Source of the DNA: Octopus vulgaris
Taxonomy: Eukaryota
Length of the DNA stretch: 64,000 nt
Assembly (NCBI GenBank): GCA_951406725.2
Contig: OX597823.1
Location: forward strand, 73,718,001-73,782,000
Reading direction: 5' to 3'
Part shown: piece by piece, positions 1 to 31,700 of the stretch
Position numbering within the stretch: the first letter of the stretch is position 1
Layout: every line of letters starts with the position of its first letter
Program-made: the position numbers

Positions 1-3000
1 TTTGACTGTGGATCCAGTTTAGATGTTAGTTTGTTGGATGTTCATATCCAGCTTCATGAAAATAAATGCCTTTAAGTGGATTTTCATCAAAGTTCAGAGT
101 TAATAGTTATTGCAGCTGTTTGATGTGGTTGTGTGCACTTTTTATTTAAATCATAAGAATGCAATCACTCTACGTTATCTGTGCATTACTGAACATTTGC
201 AATTGCAAAGACTACAAGAAATTGAGGTAAACTTTAAACAGGAGCTGTGGCTTTCAAAACTACAAGTGGACTTTGTTTTATTTATTATCAGACAATGCTT
301 GTACTACAATAGGTACTTGTTTAGTTAATCAGATTGTGTAGTGAGTTGTTATCTGCAGAGTTGGCATACTAATATATTCACCAACTGCAACACAGATAAA
401 GAAAGTGCATTAGGTTAGAAGAAATTACAGATAAATTGTGTTGGACAAGTCATAAAAGTGCAAAAGTAATTTTATGCATGGAGAAAGTGTTTGCATCAGG
501 AGTATATCATGACAGTGTGGTGGAGAGAGCATGTGTGTGTGTGTGTGTGTGTGAAAGAGAGAGAGAAAGAAGAAGAAGAAGAGAGTAAAAGAAAGAACAA
601 AGTGATATGACTTGCTGAAACCTTTCAAACTCTGTCTTCTATATGACAATTGTTCCCAGCATTACTTAAATAGTTTTGACTTCTGAATTAGATGCCACCT
701 TTACTTAAACTATCCATTTCTCATTCATTTGTCACACAAAATGTCTCTCTCTCTCGTCTCTCTCTCTCTCTCGTCTCTCTCTCTGTTTCTCGATTATTTT
801 GTAAAACATTGATCTAATCATTCCTCTAAAATTAGTAATACCACACTTTCCATTCCATGGTTTTCTGTCAGACTTTGACAAGCCAATTTGGGAACCTATA
901 CATGGTTGTTCTGGCTTCTAGAAATAGCAGGCAAACCTCTCTTAAACTAGCCATTTCTCACACAAAATGTCTCTCTCTTCTTCTAGATTATTTTATAAAA
1001 CATTCATCTGATCTTTCCATTCCTAGTTATTTCACCAGATTTTGACAAGCCAATCTGGGAACATATACATGGTTGTCCTGTTTTCTAGAAATAGCCTGCA
1101 AATCTCCTTCAAAACATACCTTACCATCTTAAAACAAGAACTCGTTAGATAATATGGTCTTAGTTGTTGGTTTCTATGAACCTCAGGTGGATCCTGGTTA
1201 GAGATCTGCTCAGATTGGGCACTCCTTAGGTTAAACAACAACCATAGAAAGTTAGAAAAGTCAGGTCTTAGCAACATTATAGGGACCCCCGAGCAAATCA
1301 GTGCCCTGGGCCCTGCAGTATTTATTGACAACAAACCCAGAATATATAGATCAGAATTGGGCCTCTGAACCTATGAAGTCCCTCCCTGGACAACTGCCCA
1401 GTATGCCCATGTCTTAAGACATTCCTATGAAGAGTCTCAGAAAAGCAAAGCAATCAGATAACAACTGATGTATCATCAGTTTGGTCTGTTAAAAGTTTGC
1501 CATTGTGTCCTTAGTAAAAGTACATCACTCTCAGTGACATGGTTTGTCTATCTGTAAAAAAATTTGTACTTAAGTGATATAATATTTGTTTCAGCAAGGT
1601 AGCCATATCTCAGTTTAACGTGACAAGTAGGGCTCTATTCAAACTCACTATAGATCAAAATAATTAAAAATATTTATTTAGTATAAAGTGATATTAGATA
1701 TTATAAGCACCAGCTTGAGATTAGAAAGACCAAGGCATCCATCAATTGAAACTGAGCCATGAGTCTCTCAAATGAGCATGTACTTGTTACACTCAGACCC
1801 TGCTGCAAAAATCTACCTAGGTTAAGTCCTTGATTTCCTTTTTTTTTTTTTGTTTTTTTAGTGTACGATAATGATGGTGTTTAACTTTTGCTACTGTAAG
1901 TGCAGTTTGAGAGAGATTTTGCTGCCATTTCTAGCAAATCAAATCAAATAGAGGTTCCCATTTTGGCTTGTCAAAATCTTGTAGAAAATCTTGGTATGAA
2001 AAGAGTGACAGAACTAACTTTAGAAGGGAAGAATGAAACACAGTGAATCTAAAAAAGAAATAGAGACAAAGAGGATGGTGTCAGACAGTTTCAGGAATAA
2101 AACTTATTTTAGTAATGCTGAAAATGATTGCATTATCTCTTAAGGACATGAAAAAAAAGGGGACAGTTGAATCTCTTTTTTTTTTTTGTATGTCCCCTCC
2201 TCCATTATTTGTATCTTATTTGAAAGAGAGAGATTGGTAGACATTCTGTTGTGTTCGTGGAAACAAGGTTTCTTGACATATGATAAATACATGGTTACAA
2301 GCCTGTCCGTAGTCTTGTCTCTCTTTTCAAATCTTAGCTTTTATAATTTATTCAGTAATAAATTCATAAATCTTTAGATTGCATTTTTTTCTATATTTTT
2401 TATATATAAATTTTACCGTATTCTTTAATAGGTGTTTCCCACAATTTACTAGAGAGACTGACTCAGGAGACTGGCGCCGCATTCATTGATGTTGAGTGAG
2501 TAATTTCTAAAACATAAAGCCTTATTTCATGTCTTTTTGATTAAGTAATTATTTAAATTTGCATTTTATTCTTTATTAAACTGCTTCTCTGTCTCTTTCT
2601 CTGCTATAACTACTCTTTCCAATGGAAATCATCTTTTTTCTTTAAAAAAACAGACAGTATAAGACATGAACAGTGTGGTTTTTATATTTATCTAATAAAG
2701 AATTGCAAATGATCTACTATGATATCCTCATCATTAAATATCTGTTTTCCATCCTGTCATGGGTTGTGAAAGAAAATAAAGCCAAAATTATTGTAGAAAT
2801 TAACTAAAAGTAAAGTAAATGTAAACCTTTCTGTTATAAATGTTGATTTCAGTTATCAATTTTAATGTAATCTAGTTACCGACTGGCACCAGAACATATT
2901 TTCCCAGTTCCTTTTGATGACTGTCTAACAGCAACTGTACATATCTTGCGGAATGGTGGGGTGTATGGTATTGATAGTTCACGTATAGCTGTTTCAGGTG

Positions 3001-28700: not shown

Positions 28701-31700
28701 ACCGGGTAGTCATTGCCAAAATTCTTTTGGCCTTAGGTGTGCTAATGCTGACCTGGTGCTGAATAATATCGATCATATCGTCTGTATATGATATGATTAA
28801 TGTGTGAACTTCCCTTTGATCTTAGCCAAAAGGCCGTGAAGCGATTTTTGATGTATAATCTTGTTAAAAATGTTCGATATAAACATATATTTAACAACAG
28901 GAATTGCACTGTCTAACCAAACAGAATTATTTAGTTTTGTCTTTGTTTATTGGCAATAGGCATGATGTGTAGTTCTGGGTTCGATCTCACTGTACAGTAC
29001 CTTGGATAAATATCATCTATGGTAACTCTTTGGTGGGGATACTGCTGGATTCATTCACCATAACTTCTTAAAACCCGGAAAAACCATTACTGCAGAAACA
29101 TATTGCCATGAAATTGCCAAAATGAACAAAAAACTGCTACTCCTCCATCTCAGACTGGCCAACAGAAGAGGCTCAATCATTCTTCATTACAATGCTCGAC
29201 CACACGTTTCACTAATGACGCTTCAGAAGTTGAGGGAACTTGGCTACGAAGTTCTTCCCCAACCAGCTTATTTCCCAGACCTTTCTGCTACTGACTACCA
29301 CTTTTTCAAGTACCTTGATGGTTTCCTGGGGAAGGACTTCGTAGAGAAGTTCCCTAAACTTCTGAAGCGTTATTAGTGAAACGTGTGGTCGAGTAATGTA
29401 ATGAAGAATGATTGGCCCTCTTCTGATGACCAGTCGGGGACGGAGGAGTAGCAGTTTTTTGTTCATTTTGGCAATTTCATGGCAATATGTTTCTGCAGTA
29501 ATGGTTTTTCCGGGTTTTAAGAAGTTATGGTGAGTGAATCCAGCAATATCCCACCAAAGAGTTACCATAGCCTTTTTGAAAAGCTCGGGTTTAGGGAAGG
29601 TTTTCGGTGCTTCATTTTGGTCCAACCACAGCAAAGAAAGTTTTTTTTTTATTATTATGCAGAACCCACTTTTCATCGCAAGTTACAATACGGTCGAGAA
29701 ATGGATCGATCTGGTTACGGAGAAGAAGCGACAAACAAATTTCATATCTGCGCATTTTCTGATTTTCTTTCAAATCGTGTGATACCTATTTGTCAAACTC
29801 TTTTGATTTTCTGATCGCATGCAAATGGTTGCAGGTAGTTTTCTAGCAAACTTGAAGTTCTTCTCGAGAGGTTTTACGTAGTTCTTTCTCAATGACGGTC
29901 TTTAATTGACCATCATCGATGAGAGATGGGCGTCCACTACGCTCACGATCTTCAAGGCTCAGGTTTCCATTGCGAAATCGTTTAAACCATTTTTGAACTG
30001 ACCACTCATTGGTCATTTCTTCACCAAACGTTCCGTTGATATCGCGAGCAGTTTCAGCTGCTTTACGTCCTTTTTTGAAGTTGAATAGCAAAATTGCTCG
30101 AATATCGCGATTTGGCAGTTCCATTTCAGATGTTTGGAACAACGGTAAAAAGAAATATCAATGTTAATTTATTGATGCATTTGGGCAAGTCTATATCTGT
30201 ATTATCAGCAGTGAGCTGGCAGAAACGTTAGCACGCCGGGCGAAATGCGTAGCCGTATTTCGTCTGCCGTTACGTTCTGAGTTCAAATTCCGCCGAGGTC
30301 GACTTTGACTTTCATCCTTTCGGAGTCGATAAATAAAGTACCAGTTACGCACTGGGGTCGATGTAATCGACTTAACCCCTTTGTCTGTCCTTGTTTGTCC
30401 CCTCTATGCTTAGCCCCTTGTGGGCAGTAAAGAAATATATATCTGTATTATCAGACAATTGCAAAAATAAGAAGAGATTGTTTTTAAAAAATTCAAAATT
30501 CTGCGAAAATCCGGTACATCTTCTTTGTTTAAAACGTTGCTTTCTCTAATTGATATAATGTATTTTATTATTTTCTTTTCTTTTTATCCAGGTGATGAAG
30601 CCGGTGGAAACTTAGCTGCAGCAGTTTCTCTTAGGCTCGCAGTTGAGACTGCATTTCCTACTCTAAGAGCTCAAATTCTTATAAGTCCGCCTCTTCAAGC
30701 ATTTGATTTTCTCACTCCATCGATGTTGTTTCATGACAAAAGTGTTCCATTTATAATGAGTCGAAGAATGATCACACAGAATTGGCTCAACTATTACCAA
30801 GGTCACACTAAAAATATTGATGAATTTTTGATCAATAACCACACAGCACCTCTTTTGAAAGAATCCGAAGTCTCCCAATCTGTGTCTGTTCATCGACTAC
30901 CCGAAAGGTACCAGAAGCAACATACTGTTCAAACGTCGACTGACTTTGGTGACGAAGATATTTCTTATGATTTTGAGCCAGTTCTTTTAAACCCATACTT
31001 TTGCCCACTGTTTGCACAAGATTTCAAAAAGATACCGCAAGCATATGTTATTTCAATGGAATTCGACGTTCTAAGAGATGACGGCTTTCTGTTTGTTGAG
31101 AGATTGCGTCAATCTGGCGTGAAAGTATATCACGACCATTTTAACGAAGCCTTTCATGGGATATTAATGTATGAACATTTTGAAACGAGAGATAAAATCA
31201 TAGCTTCATTGGTCAGTTTTATTAAAGGCAGCGTTTAATAGCAATTTTATCCCCATTAAACATTTAATCAATTGATTACACACAATCGCCCGTTCGTATG
31301 ATTTACGTGTGTATTCGTGAGAATGAGTGTATGCGTGTACTGACAGCTAATCATTATTTTTAATCAGCAAAAGCACAATTTTTTTCTAATTAAATAAAAA
31401 TAAATGAATTATTATTGTTACTGCTTTTCATTTAGAGTTTGGGATCTTTTCGGTTTGAACGGCAGTTTTTAACATAATTTCTAGGTAACTAAAAAGTTTT
31501 AAACTTCGTATACTGGTAGAATGTGTTTATAAAACATCTTTTTCTCTTGGCTTTATTAAGAAAATTCTATAGTTTGTAAGATATTTGTTGTTTTTTTTTC
31601 TTCAATTTCTGCAATTTCAACCAATCAGAGACGTCTATTGAGTTAAAAAGCATTCTGTGCTGTATGAGTATGTCCCTCGTTTAAGAAACAGATTGGGTTT

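What the first reader, a model, noticed from the sequence alone, without database searches (positions are those of the whole stretch)
2876..31238. One esterase donor, two paralogous last exons: possible switch between active enzyme and pseudo-enzyme
Seen: the exon ending at 2997 (..RIAVS-G, phase 1) can splice in frame to either 10596 (GESAG) or 30592 (GDEAG). Both exons are intact, about 214 codons long, and by eye only roughly 40% identical, so the duplication looks old and both copies look maintained. I found no YRLAPE or HGGG exon between 11.3 and 30.5 kb. Known: in AADAC/NCEH1 genes the last exon holds the whole Ser-Asp-His triad. Inference: alternative last-exon choice would swap the entire catalytic module on a shared N-terminus.
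Basis: partly seen in the sequence, partly recalled or inferred. Interest (0 to 1): 0.85.

Follow-up and report, generated by a model that had tools for sequence, protein, structure and literature searches.

The report
Octopus esterase gene, two alternative last exons
An octopus esterase gene can end in either of two anciently duplicated last exons, one with the normal catalytic serine and one with glutamate in its place, an arrangement already listed as two isoforms in public annotation but apparently never studied.

Summary
The exon at 2876-2997 (YRLAPE...RIAVS, phase 1, GT donor) can join in frame to 10596 (exon A, GESAGG) or to 30592 (exon B, GDEAGG). Both exons are open to their stop codons and are 45-46% identical.

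The window is Octopus DNA, closest to O. vulgaris. RefSeq already lists both products as "arylacetamide deacetylase isoform X2" (A) and "isoform X1" (B) in O. sinensis and O. bimaculoides. Their first 188 residues are identical within each species. Argonauta hians has a B-type model that also reads GDEAG.

I found no private upstream exons for B in the window. B is as conserved as the shared half: 93.5% against 95.7% for Octopus versus Octopus, and 79% against 77% for Octopus versus Argonauta.

B's Glu aligns with the catalytic Ser155 of esterase EST2, and its Asp and His are kept. In a tree A and B are sisters, with cuttlefish-type sequences outside them. This points to a duplication of the last exon in the octopod lineage.

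I saw no junction reads. That the Glu isoform is inactive, and that the choice of exon is regulated, are both inferences. Six literature searches found no description of this case.

It is a real, ordinary-in-kind tandem-duplicated alternative exon pair with an unusual catalytic swap.

The parts
2432..2495 (+). Shared upstream exon. It encodes (G)VSHNLLERLTQETGAAFIDV plus 2 bases of an Asp codon, corresponding to residues 126-148 of the RefSeq isoforms.
   Evidence: tblastn of P0025/P0033. The sequence shows aatag|GT...GA|gtgagt.
2876..2997 (+). Shared penultimate exon, the common donor (YRLAPE...RIAVS plus G of a Gly codon). The donor GT is at 2998-2999.
   Evidence: Pfam Abhydrolase_3 E 3.4e-8. 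100% match to residues 149-190 of P0025.
10596..11239 (+). Alternative last exon A, coding part. It has GESAGG (nucleophile Ser), FDTVRDE (Asp) and VHGL (His). The stop is TAG at 11237-11239. The 3' UTR is not delimited; the first AATAAA is at 12157.
   Evidence: Pfam Abhydrolase_3 E 1.2e-24. 213/214 identical to O. sinensis isoform X2, XP_029640655.1.
30592..31238 (+). Alternative last exon B, coding part. It has GDEAGG (Glu in place of the nucleophile Ser), FDVLRDD (Asp) and FHGI (His). The stop is TAA at 31236-31238. ATTAAA occurs at 31255 and 31389, AATAAA at 31399.
   Evidence: Pfam Abhydrolase_3 E 5.4e-21. 214/215 identical to O. sinensis isoform X1, XP_029640652.1. The alignment to EST2 chain 2hm7_A puts Glu on Ser155.
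11721..11807 (+). Doubtful mini-exon. Only the 689-aa O. vulgaris model CAI9729225.1 uses it, to chain a truncated exon A to exon B. It lies in the likely 3' UTR of exon A.
   Evidence: tblastn of P0036, residues 448-476, 96.6%. The sequence shows ag|GACTT...AAAAG|gtgaat. It is absent from RefSeq X1 and X2.

Best explanation
This is the 3' part of a single Octopus AADAC-like gene. The family is the hormone-sensitive-lipase family of alpha/beta hydrolases, Pfam Abhydrolase_3. The last coding exon was duplicated in tandem in the octopod lineage, before Octopus and Argonauta diverged.

The two copies now serve as alternative terminal exons. The donor at 2997 splices either to the proximal acceptor at 10596 or skips about 20 kb of repeat-rich sequence to the distal acceptor at 30592. 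Each terminal exon brings its own stop codon and its own 3' end.

Each exon encodes the whole second half of the enzyme: the nucleophile elbow, the cap insertion, the catalytic Asp and the catalytic His.
- Isoform A (RefSeq X2) carries Ser-Asp-His and is presumably a working esterase or deacetylase.
- Isoform B (RefSeq X1) has the same fold and the same Asp and His but Glu at the nucleophile position. It cannot do ordinary serine-esterase chemistry and most likely acts as a ligand-binding or regulatory, non-hydrolytic partner.

Shown here: the exon anatomy, the homology, the shared N-terminus in annotated isoforms, the conservation of both exons, and the Ser-to-Glu position.

Inferred: actual use of both junctions in vivo, regulation of the choice, and the loss or change of activity in B.
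For: Anatomy:
- Both acceptors are AG in the same phase, with pyrimidine tracts of 75% (A) and 90% (B). The donor is CAG|gtgagt.

Homology:
- A and B are 45% identical (E 1e-62). Both match Pfam Abhydrolase_3.
- DNA similarity survives only in the first ~120 nt of the exons (72%), so the duplication is old.

Annotation:
- XP_029640652.1, XP_036361919.1 and XP_036361920.1 are O. sinensis X1 (B). XP_029640655.1 is O. sinensis X2 (A).
- Four XP accessions are O. bimaculoides X1 (B). XP_014770186.1 is O. bimaculoides X2 (A).
- The N-terminal 188 residues are identical between X1 and X2 in each species.
- Argonauta hians GAB1603097.1 is B-type with GDEAG.

No private exons for B:
- tblastn with 6 full-length proteins at E<=1 placed N-terminal-half residues only at 2419/2428-2496 and 2877-3002.
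- The profile search gave one significant hit, 2871-3002.

Constraint:
- O. sinensis versus O. bimaculoides: N-terminal half 95.7%, A 94.4%, B 93.5%.
- O. sinensis versus Argonauta: N-terminal half 77.1%, B 79.4%.
- B keeps 42 and A keeps 39 of 49 columns that are at least 70% conserved in 147 relatives.

Catalytic positions:
- B's Glu aligns with Ser155 of EST2. By my count along that alignment its Asp and His fall on D252 and H282 (the triad numbering is recalled).

Fold:
- AlphaFold2 models give B isoform pLDDT 93.7 and A isoform 93.8, both pTM 0.93, with the same order of secondary-structure elements. Residue 191 sits between strand 180-190 and the following helix in both.
- The B model matches HSL-family esterases (Foldseek target TM 0.72-0.86).

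Tree:
- The A clade and the B clade are sisters (support 82/79). The clade holding the cuttlefish Acanthosepion pharaonis cluster lies outside them (90/93).
Against: - I saw no RNA evidence. XP_ records are computed models, and I could not inspect what supports them.
- Two other annotations disagree. The O. vulgaris model CAI9729225.1 chains a truncated A, a mini-exon and B into one 689-aa protein. The older O. bimaculoides entry A0A0L8IHX4 makes B a separate 253-aa protein whose 5' exon maps into a mariner remnant at 29659-29736.
- No A-type sequence was found outside the genus-level cluster. The only Argonauta model recovered is B-type. The alternation may therefore be narrower than Octopoda, or A may simply be unannotated there.
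- The A+B sister grouping has only moderate support (82/79).
- The profile test for hidden exons is weak for short exons. The true exon at 2432-2495 scored only E 2.4.
- The shared half has HPGG where at least 90% of 60 relatives have HGGG, so full activity of isoform A is not assured.
- Retention of Asp and His in B across three species is not what a purely inert scaffold needs.
- Equal AlphaFold confidence for the two isoforms reflects the family alignment and does not discriminate between them.
Confidence: 0.75

Rival explanations
1. Isoform B is not a dead enzyme but a neo-functionalised one. On this reading Glu191, with the retained His and Asp, acts as a carboxylate nucleophile or general base. 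This would resemble the Asp-nucleophile alpha/beta hydrolases such as haloalkane dehalogenases and epoxide hydrolases (recalled). Exon choice would then switch chemistry or substrate class rather than switching activity off.
For: Asp and His are kept in B in all 3 species seen, and the small residues of the elbow (G-D-E-A-G-G) are kept. B keeps 42 of 49 family-conserved columns, more than A. Among 147 relatives, 4 have Asp at this position (GDDAG), so carboxylate substitutions recur in the family.
Against: None of the 147 relatives has Glu at this position. I know of no alpha/beta hydrolase with a Glu nucleophile (recalled, not searched exhaustively). No activity data exist. The extra methylene of Glu may not fit the elbow geometry, and I could not measure this on the model.
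Confidence: 0.15
2. Exon B is an orphan relic of a partial gene duplication. It would not be used in vivo, and the X1 models would be artefacts of gene prediction.
For: I saw no transcript evidence. The A-B interval is full of transposon debris, and a mariner remnant lies directly upstream of B. Older annotations handled B inconsistently.
Against: The 214-codon frame is open (chance about 3e-7). It is intact in O. vulgaris-like, O. sinensis, O. bimaculoides and Argonauta sequences, and as conserved as the shared coding half. Its acceptor has a 90% pyrimidine tract in the right phase. An Argonauta annotation from a source other than RefSeq also joins B to the N-terminal exons.
Confidence: 0.05
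3. Exon B belongs to a separate downstream paralogue. Its own upstream exons would be too diverged to detect, or would lie elsewhere.
For: The profile search is weak for short exons. The first 125 residues of the gene lie outside the window, so only two of the upstream exons could be examined directly.
Against: The most conserved upstream exon (YRLAPE, profile E 6e-19 for the real copy) has no second copy in 64 kb. RefSeq X1 and X2 share all 188 N-terminal residues in two species. The Argonauta B-type protein has an N-terminus 77% identical to the Octopus shared one.
Confidence: 0.03
4. A and B are both included in one read-through protein, as in the O. vulgaris 689-aa model.
For: Model CAI9729225.1 exists. 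Its mini-exon 11721-11807 has plausible splice sites.
Against: The model needs a weak internal donor (ACA|gtcata) inside exon A, 14 codons before its stop. It would give a protein with two second halves of one fold and only one first half. No such form appears in RefSeq for two congeners.
Confidence: 0.02

Closest known systems
Vertebrate AADAC / NCEH1 / AADACL genes (HSL-family, Abhydrolase_3, type II membrane esterases)
   Same: Same Pfam family. Similar length of about 400 aa. Predicted N-terminal helix at 2-21. YRLAPE motif, G-x-S-x-G elbow, DxLRD Asp and HG His motifs, and 30-35% identity to Xenopus, Danio and bird AADAC/AADACL4/NCEH1 proteins.
   Different: The octopus gene has two paralogous last exons, one of them with Glu for Ser. 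The shared half reads HPGG instead of HGGG. I know of no such alternative last-exon pair in vertebrate AADAC genes (recalled, not tested).
Tandem duplicated exon substitution / mutually exclusive homologous exons
   Same: Two homologous exons in tandem, in the same phase, of which one enters the mRNA. The isoforms are identical except for a homologous region. Events of this kind are described as rare, ancient and functionally important (abstracts of PMC9741552, PMC8373072 and PMC9013439, seen in the listing).
   Different: Here the duplicated unit is the terminal exon, so the choice is coupled to 3'-end formation rather than being an internal either/or splice. The swapped region is half the protein, including all three catalytic residues. 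The copies are only 45% identical.
ABHD4 (enzyme) / ABHD5 (pseudoenzyme) paralogue pair
   Same: An alpha/beta hydrolase and a structurally related paralogue that has lost the nucleophile and diverged in function after duplication. [quoted passage not shown]
   Different: Those are two separate genes. In octopus the pair is packaged in one gene, with a shared N-terminal half and promoter.
Acetylcholinesterase alternative 3' exons (recalled from general knowledge, no call)
   Same: An alpha/beta-hydrolase-fold gene whose alternative 3' exons give isoforms with different C-termini.
   Different: In AChE the catalytic domain is constant and only a short anchoring or oligomerisation tail changes. 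Here the catalytic half itself is exchanged.
Haliotis 'arylacetamide deacetylase-like isoform X2' (XP_071084734.1, XP_048246584.1)
   Same: A molluscan AADAC-like protein annotated as one of several isoforms. It has a non-Ser residue (GDNAG) at the nucleophile position.
   Different: I could not fetch its isoform X1, so I do not know whether that gene also swaps last exons. The substitution is Asn, not Glu.

Membership tests
HSL-family alpha/beta hydrolase (Pfam PF07859 Abhydrolase_3; AADAC/NCEH1 group) | Significant match to the family profile | tested here: met
   Exon A scores 87.7 bits, exon B 75.7 bits and the donor exon 33.9 bits, against a cut-off of 25.
HSL-family alpha/beta hydrolase (Pfam PF07859 Abhydrolase_3; AADAC/NCEH1 group) | G-D/E-S-A-G nucleophile elbow with Ser | tested here: met
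   This row is for isoform A: GESAGG. Ser is present in 96% of 147 relatives at this column.
HSL-family alpha/beta hydrolase (Pfam PF07859 Abhydrolase_3; AADAC/NCEH1 group) | Nucleophile Ser in isoform B | tested here: not met
   B reads GDEAGG. Its Glu aligns with Ser155 of EST2 chain 2hm7_A. The same Glu is present in O. bimaculoides and Argonauta. None of the 147 relatives has Glu here.
HSL-family alpha/beta hydrolase (Pfam PF07859 Abhydrolase_3; AADAC/NCEH1 group) | Catalytic Asp (DxLRD) and His (HG) in the C-terminal part | tested here: met
   Both A and B keep the invariant Asp, Arg-Asp and His columns.
HSL-family alpha/beta hydrolase (Pfam PF07859 Abhydrolase_3; AADAC/NCEH1 group) | HGGG oxyanion-hole motif | tested here: inconclusive
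   The exon lies outside the window. In the RefSeq proteins it reads HPGG, aligned to HGGG of Est8 and 2yh2. Gly at that column is at least 90% conserved in 60 sequences. The last two Gly residues are kept; from recall these are the ones that donate the amide NH groups.
HSL-family alpha/beta hydrolase (Pfam PF07859 Abhydrolase_3; AADAC/NCEH1 group) | Esterase/deacetylase activity | not testable with these tools
   This needs recombinant protein and substrate assays.
Tandem-duplicated alternative (terminal) exons | Two homologous exons in tandem on one strand, with the same phase and usable acceptors | tested here: met
Tandem-duplicated alternative (terminal) exons | Isoforms that share all upstream exons and differ only in the duplicated exon | tested here: met
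   RefSeq X1 and X2 have 188/188 identical N-terminal residues in O. sinensis and in O. bimaculoides. These are computed models.
Tandem-duplicated alternative (terminal) exons | Transcript reads across both junctions, and separate poly(A) sites | not testable with these tools
   No RNA data were available. Only hexamer signals were seen: AATAAA at 12157 after A, and ATTAAA at 31255/31389 and AATAAA at 31399 after B. These are weak evidence in AT-rich DNA.
Pseudoenzyme | Loss of an essential catalytic residue, with fold and sequence kept under constraint | tested here: met
   Ser to Glu. B is 93.5% (Octopus versus Octopus) and 79.4% (Octopus versus Argonauta) conserved, as much as the shared half. 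Model pLDDT is 93.7.
Pseudoenzyme | Demonstrated lack of catalytic activity | not testable with these tools
   A biochemical assay is needed.

The most novel reading that the evidence does not exclude
Octopods keep an enzyme and its nucleophile-substituted twin in one gene, and choose between them by last-exon selection. The Glu-His-Asp isoform has been conserved since before the Octopus-Argonauta split. On this reading it is a working protein with a new chemistry or a regulatory role, for example binding the same lipids or xenobiotics without cleaving them, or partnering with isoform A. The GDNAG 'isoform X2' of Haliotis hints that pairing an enzyme with a nucleophile-less isoform may recur in molluscan AADAC-like genes.
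Probability: 0.2. Interest if true: 0.7.

Novelty: new member of a known kind. Interest (0 to 1): 0.45.

Why it matters
Most enzyme/pseudoenzyme pairs are separate genes. Most 'inactive splice isoforms' arise by truncation or exon skipping. Here a complete, folded and conserved alternative catalytic half is swapped onto the same N-terminal half and the same promoter. The ratio of catalytic to non-catalytic protein could therefore be set purely by 3' exon choice.

This gives a clean natural system for asking what a nucleophile-less alpha/beta hydrolase does. It also allows a test of whether Glu can replace Ser at the elbow. In addition, it shows that RefSeq isoform labels can hide functionally sharp differences.

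The finding remains a single gene in one animal group, of a known general kind, and it is already present in public annotation.

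Tried and rejected
- Private upstream exons for B. I looked by motif scan and tblastn of the donor exon, by tblastn with six full-length relatives, and by a profile HMM of 76 N-terminal halves against 3407 six-frame segments. Nothing was found beyond the two shared exons. The profile is insensitive to short exons: the true exon 2432-2495 scored only E 2.4.
- A-type sequences outside Octopus. The 'longer' search, the 'near' search and the exhaustive representative search found none closer than 48% (P0187, which groups with the decapodiform clade). 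In the 50% library the octopus proteins are represented by the Argonauta B-type protein, so A-type orthologues may be hidden inside that cluster.
- DNA similarity of the flanks of A and B. There is none outside the first ~120 nt of the exons.
- Literature. Six searches were answered. None returned a paper on this gene, on GDEAG in esterases, or on AADAC in cephalopods. PMC13612227 (passages read) was not relevant.
- Haliotis isoform X1.
- The O. vulgaris read-through model and the 253-aa O. bimaculoides model were considered and judged to be annotation artefacts.
Searches were made exon by exon, and full-length work used the database proteins P0025 and P0033.

Full report
**What is in the sequence**

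The window has no N. On the + strand there are four coding pieces of one Abhydrolase_3 gene.
- Exon 2432-2495: aatag|GT...GA|gtgagt. It encodes (G)VSHNLLERLTQETGAAFIDV.
- Exon 2876-2997: ctag|T TAC..., encoding YRLAPE...RIAVS, ending CAG|gtgagt with one base of a Gly codon left over.
- Exon A from 10596: tttcag|GT GAA AGT GCT GGA GGG, reading G-ESAGG, with 213 further codons and TAG at 11237-11239.
- Exon B from 30592: atccag|GT GAT GAA GCC GGT GGA, reading G-DEAGG, with 214 further codons and TAA at 31236-31238.

Both acceptors accept the phase-1 donor at 2997. Their pyrimidine tracts are 75% (A) and 90% (B).

All three larger pieces match Pfam Abhydrolase_3 above the cut-off. A and B are 45.3% identical over 214 residues (E 1e-62), or 98/214 by global alignment. 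By segment, identity is 65% in the elbow/helix segment, 43% in the cap insertion and 40% in the Asp-His part.

An open frame of 214 codons has a chance of about 3e-7 at this base composition. Only A, B and one unrelated ORF exceed 200 aa among the 68 frames of 90 aa or more in the window.

**Where it comes from and what is already annotated**

I searched exon by exon and did not join the window's exons for any search.

Exon B, searched against longer proteins, found:
- 'arylacetamide deacetylase isoform X1 [Octopus bimaculoides]' (403 aa, 94% identity);
- 'isoform X1 [Argonauta hians]' (402 aa, 80% identity);
- unnamed 388-417-aa proteins at 46-53% identity;
- AADAC/AADACL4/NCEH1-like proteins of other animals at 28-40% identity (24 hits among 614 candidates).

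Exon A found 'isoform X2 [Octopus sinensis]' (402 aa, rounded to 100%) and distant relatives (8 hits among 1212 candidates).

The cluster look-up showed four things.
- The X1 cluster also holds O. sinensis isoform X1 (XP_029640652.1, XP_036361919.1, XP_036361920.1) and a 253-aa O. bimaculoides UniRef entry.
- The X2 cluster also holds O. bimaculoides isoform X2 (XP_014770186.1).
- The X2 cluster also holds a 689-aa O. vulgaris model (CAI9729225.1).
- The X2 cluster also holds one unnamed 222-aa fragment that starts in the intron just before exon A, so it is genomic rather than a transcript.

The window differs from the O. sinensis proteins at one residue in each exon. At both positions it agrees with the O. 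vulgaris model. The DNA is therefore Octopus, most like O. vulgaris.

**One gene or two**

Within O. sinensis, and within O. bimaculoides, isoforms X1 and X2 have 188/188 identical N-terminal residues. The annotators therefore attach both last exons to the same upstream exons.

tblastn with six full-length proteins (E<=1) placed N-terminal-half residues only at 2419/2428-2496 and 2877-3002. Residues 1-125 map nowhere in the window, so they lie upstream of it.

A profile of 76 N-terminal halves, run against all 3407 six-frame segments, gave one significant hit: 2871-3002, E 6e-19. That test is weak for short exons, since the true exon 2432-2495 reached only E 2.4. But the best-conserved upstream exon clearly has no second copy.

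The 19 kb between A and B consist largely of interspersed repeats and mariner-type transposase remnants.

Two dissenting models look like artefacts.
- The O. vulgaris protein cuts exon A at a weak ACA|gtcata site 14 codons before its stop. It passes through a mini-exon at 11721-11807 and then reads B, giving one first half and two second halves of the fold.
- The 253-aa O. bimaculoides entry gives B a 5' exon that maps into the mariner remnant at 29659-29736.

**Is exon B maintained**

Identity between O. sinensis and O. bimaculoides is 95.7% for the shared half, 94.4% for A and 93.5% for B. Between O. sinensis and Argonauta it is 77.1% for the shared half and 79.4% for B. B is therefore as constrained as coding sequence that nobody doubts.

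Of 49 columns conserved in at least 70% of 147 relatives, B keeps 42 and A keeps 39.

**Catalytic residues**

In the HMMER alignment to the solved esterase EST2 (2hm7_A), B's 'DEAGG' lies on 'DSAGG' starting at chain residue 154, so Glu sits on Ser155. Counting along the second aligned block puts B's FDVLRD Asp on D252 and its FHG His on H282. That these three residues are the EST2 triad is recalled, not taken from a call.

A has Ser, Asp and His.

Among the 147 relatives, 6 lack Ser: 4 have GDDAG, 1 GDNAG and 1 GDGAG. None has Glu. The named ones are Haliotis 'arylacetamide deacetylase-like isoform X2' (GDNAG) and a Lineus longissimus protein (GDDAG).

The shared N-terminal half reads HPGG (HYGG in Argonauta) where Est8 and 2yh2 have HGGG, and where at least 90% of 60 aligned relatives have Gly. 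From recall, the amide donors of the oxyanion hole are the last two Gly residues, and these are kept. I therefore treat this as a caveat and not as loss of function.

**Fold**

AlphaFold2, with 60-sequence alignments, was run on the RefSeq proteins (not on a join of my own).

| Isoform | Mean pLDDT | pTM |
|---|---|---|
| B (X1) | 93.7 | 0.93 |
| A (X2) | 93.8 | 0.93 |

Both models have the same order of helices and strands. Both have an N-terminal helix at 2-21, and residue 191 sits between strand 180-190 and the next helix, which is the nucleophile-elbow position.

The B model matches HSL-family esterases in the PDB (target-normalised TM 0.72-0.86).

With a family alignment these scores are expected. 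They show compatibility with the fold, not function.

**History**

An ML tree was built from 35 last-exon-equivalent sequences.
- The A clade (3 rows, support 100/100) and the B clade (3 rows, 100/99) are sisters (82/79).
- Next to them (90/93) lies a clade of five GDSAG/GESTG sequences. One of these clusters at 90% identity with an Acanthosepion pharaonis protein, so this clade is at least partly decapodiform.
- A's stem is longer than B's (0.79 versus 0.40).
- Correspondingly, B is 47-53% and A 38-43% identical to those sequences.

The simplest reading has three steps. The last exon duplicated in the octopod lineage after it split from decapodiforms and before the Octopus-Argonauta split. 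Copy B then changed Ser to Glu while otherwise staying conservative. Copy A diverged faster but kept Ser.

The sister relationship is only moderately supported. I also found no A-type sequence in Argonauta.

**Mechanism proposed**

The donor at 2997 pairs either with the proximal acceptor or with the distal one.
- Proximal choice: exon A, its own stop, and a probable 3' end after the AATAAA at 12157.
- Distal choice: the donor skips A and pairs with exon B, with poly(A) hexamers at 31255, 31389 and 31399.

The result is a membrane-anchored esterase (A), or a protein of the same fold with Glu-Asp-His (B).

I take B to be non-hydrolytic towards esters and to act by binding or regulation (confidence about 0.6 within the overall model). 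The main functional rival is a changed chemistry using the carboxylate.

None of the following has been observed by me:
- use of the two junctions;
- regulation of the choice;
- enzymatic activity of either isoform.

**Comparison and novelty**

In kind this is a tandem-duplicated exon pair used alternatively. That class is described as rare, ancient and functionally important (abstracts of PMC9741552, PMC8373072 and PMC9013439 in the listing). Here it occurs in the terminal-exon form.

As an enzyme/pseudoenzyme pairing it resembles ABHD4/ABHD5 (passage of PMC13572076), but within one gene.

Six answered literature searches gave no paper on this gene, on AADAC in cephalopods, or on a GDEAG elbow. 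Subscription journals and supplements were not covered.

Because RefSeq already lists both isoforms, the arrangement is not a discovery of gene structure. What is undescribed is its meaning.

I rate it a new member of a known kind, with interest 0.45.

Noticed in passing
window 43964-45853 (+): An uninterrupted 629-aa frame with ankyrin repeats (Pfam Ank_2 E 6e-45). It aligns nearly end to end with solved Fem-1 homolog C and B chains (8pql_H, query 45-628 versus chain 13-616, E 2.3e-42). It is apparently an intronless fem-1-like gene about 13 kb downstream of exon B.
   Followed up: partly
window 48825-50433: A 34-bp satellite of about 47 copies with 92-93% matches. It produces long spurious open frames.
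   Followed up: partly
window 29017-30157, 14702-15064 and 8552-8863: Mariner/Mos1-type transposase remnants (Pfam Transposase_1 and HTH_48). They include an inverted 245-bp pair at 29017-29261 / 29327-29570, directly upstream of exon B. The piece at 8552-8863 looks similar by eye but had no Pfam hit. One old O. bimaculoides gene model borrowed a bogus 5' exon from this region.
   Followed up: partly
window 11300-30500 and elsewhere: Many copies of interspersed repeats, mostly about 200-420 bp, at 84-96% identity scattered through the window (41 megablast pairs for the A-B interval alone). There are also abundant microsatellite-like tracts that give TH/CV-rich pseudo-ORFs.
   Followed up: no
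outside the window (residues 117-120 of P0025/P0033): The shared N-terminal half of the octopus gene reads HPGG (HYGG in Argonauta) where at least 90% of 60 relatives have HGGG. The effect on the oxyanion hole is unknown.
   Followed up: partly
proteins P0060/P0224 (Haliotis), P0099 (Lineus), P0043, P0113, P0122, P0128 (unnamed): Six of 147 relatives lack the nucleophile Ser (GDNAG, GDDAG x4, GDGAG). The Haliotis one is annotated as 'isoform X2', which may be a parallel enzyme/non-enzyme isoform pair. Its isoform X1 could not be fetched.
   Followed up: partly
window 11721-11807 (+): A mini-exon with good splice sites in the presumed 3' UTR of exon A. Only the O. vulgaris 689-aa model uses it. 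It might mark real 3'-UTR splicing towards exon B.
   Followed up: no
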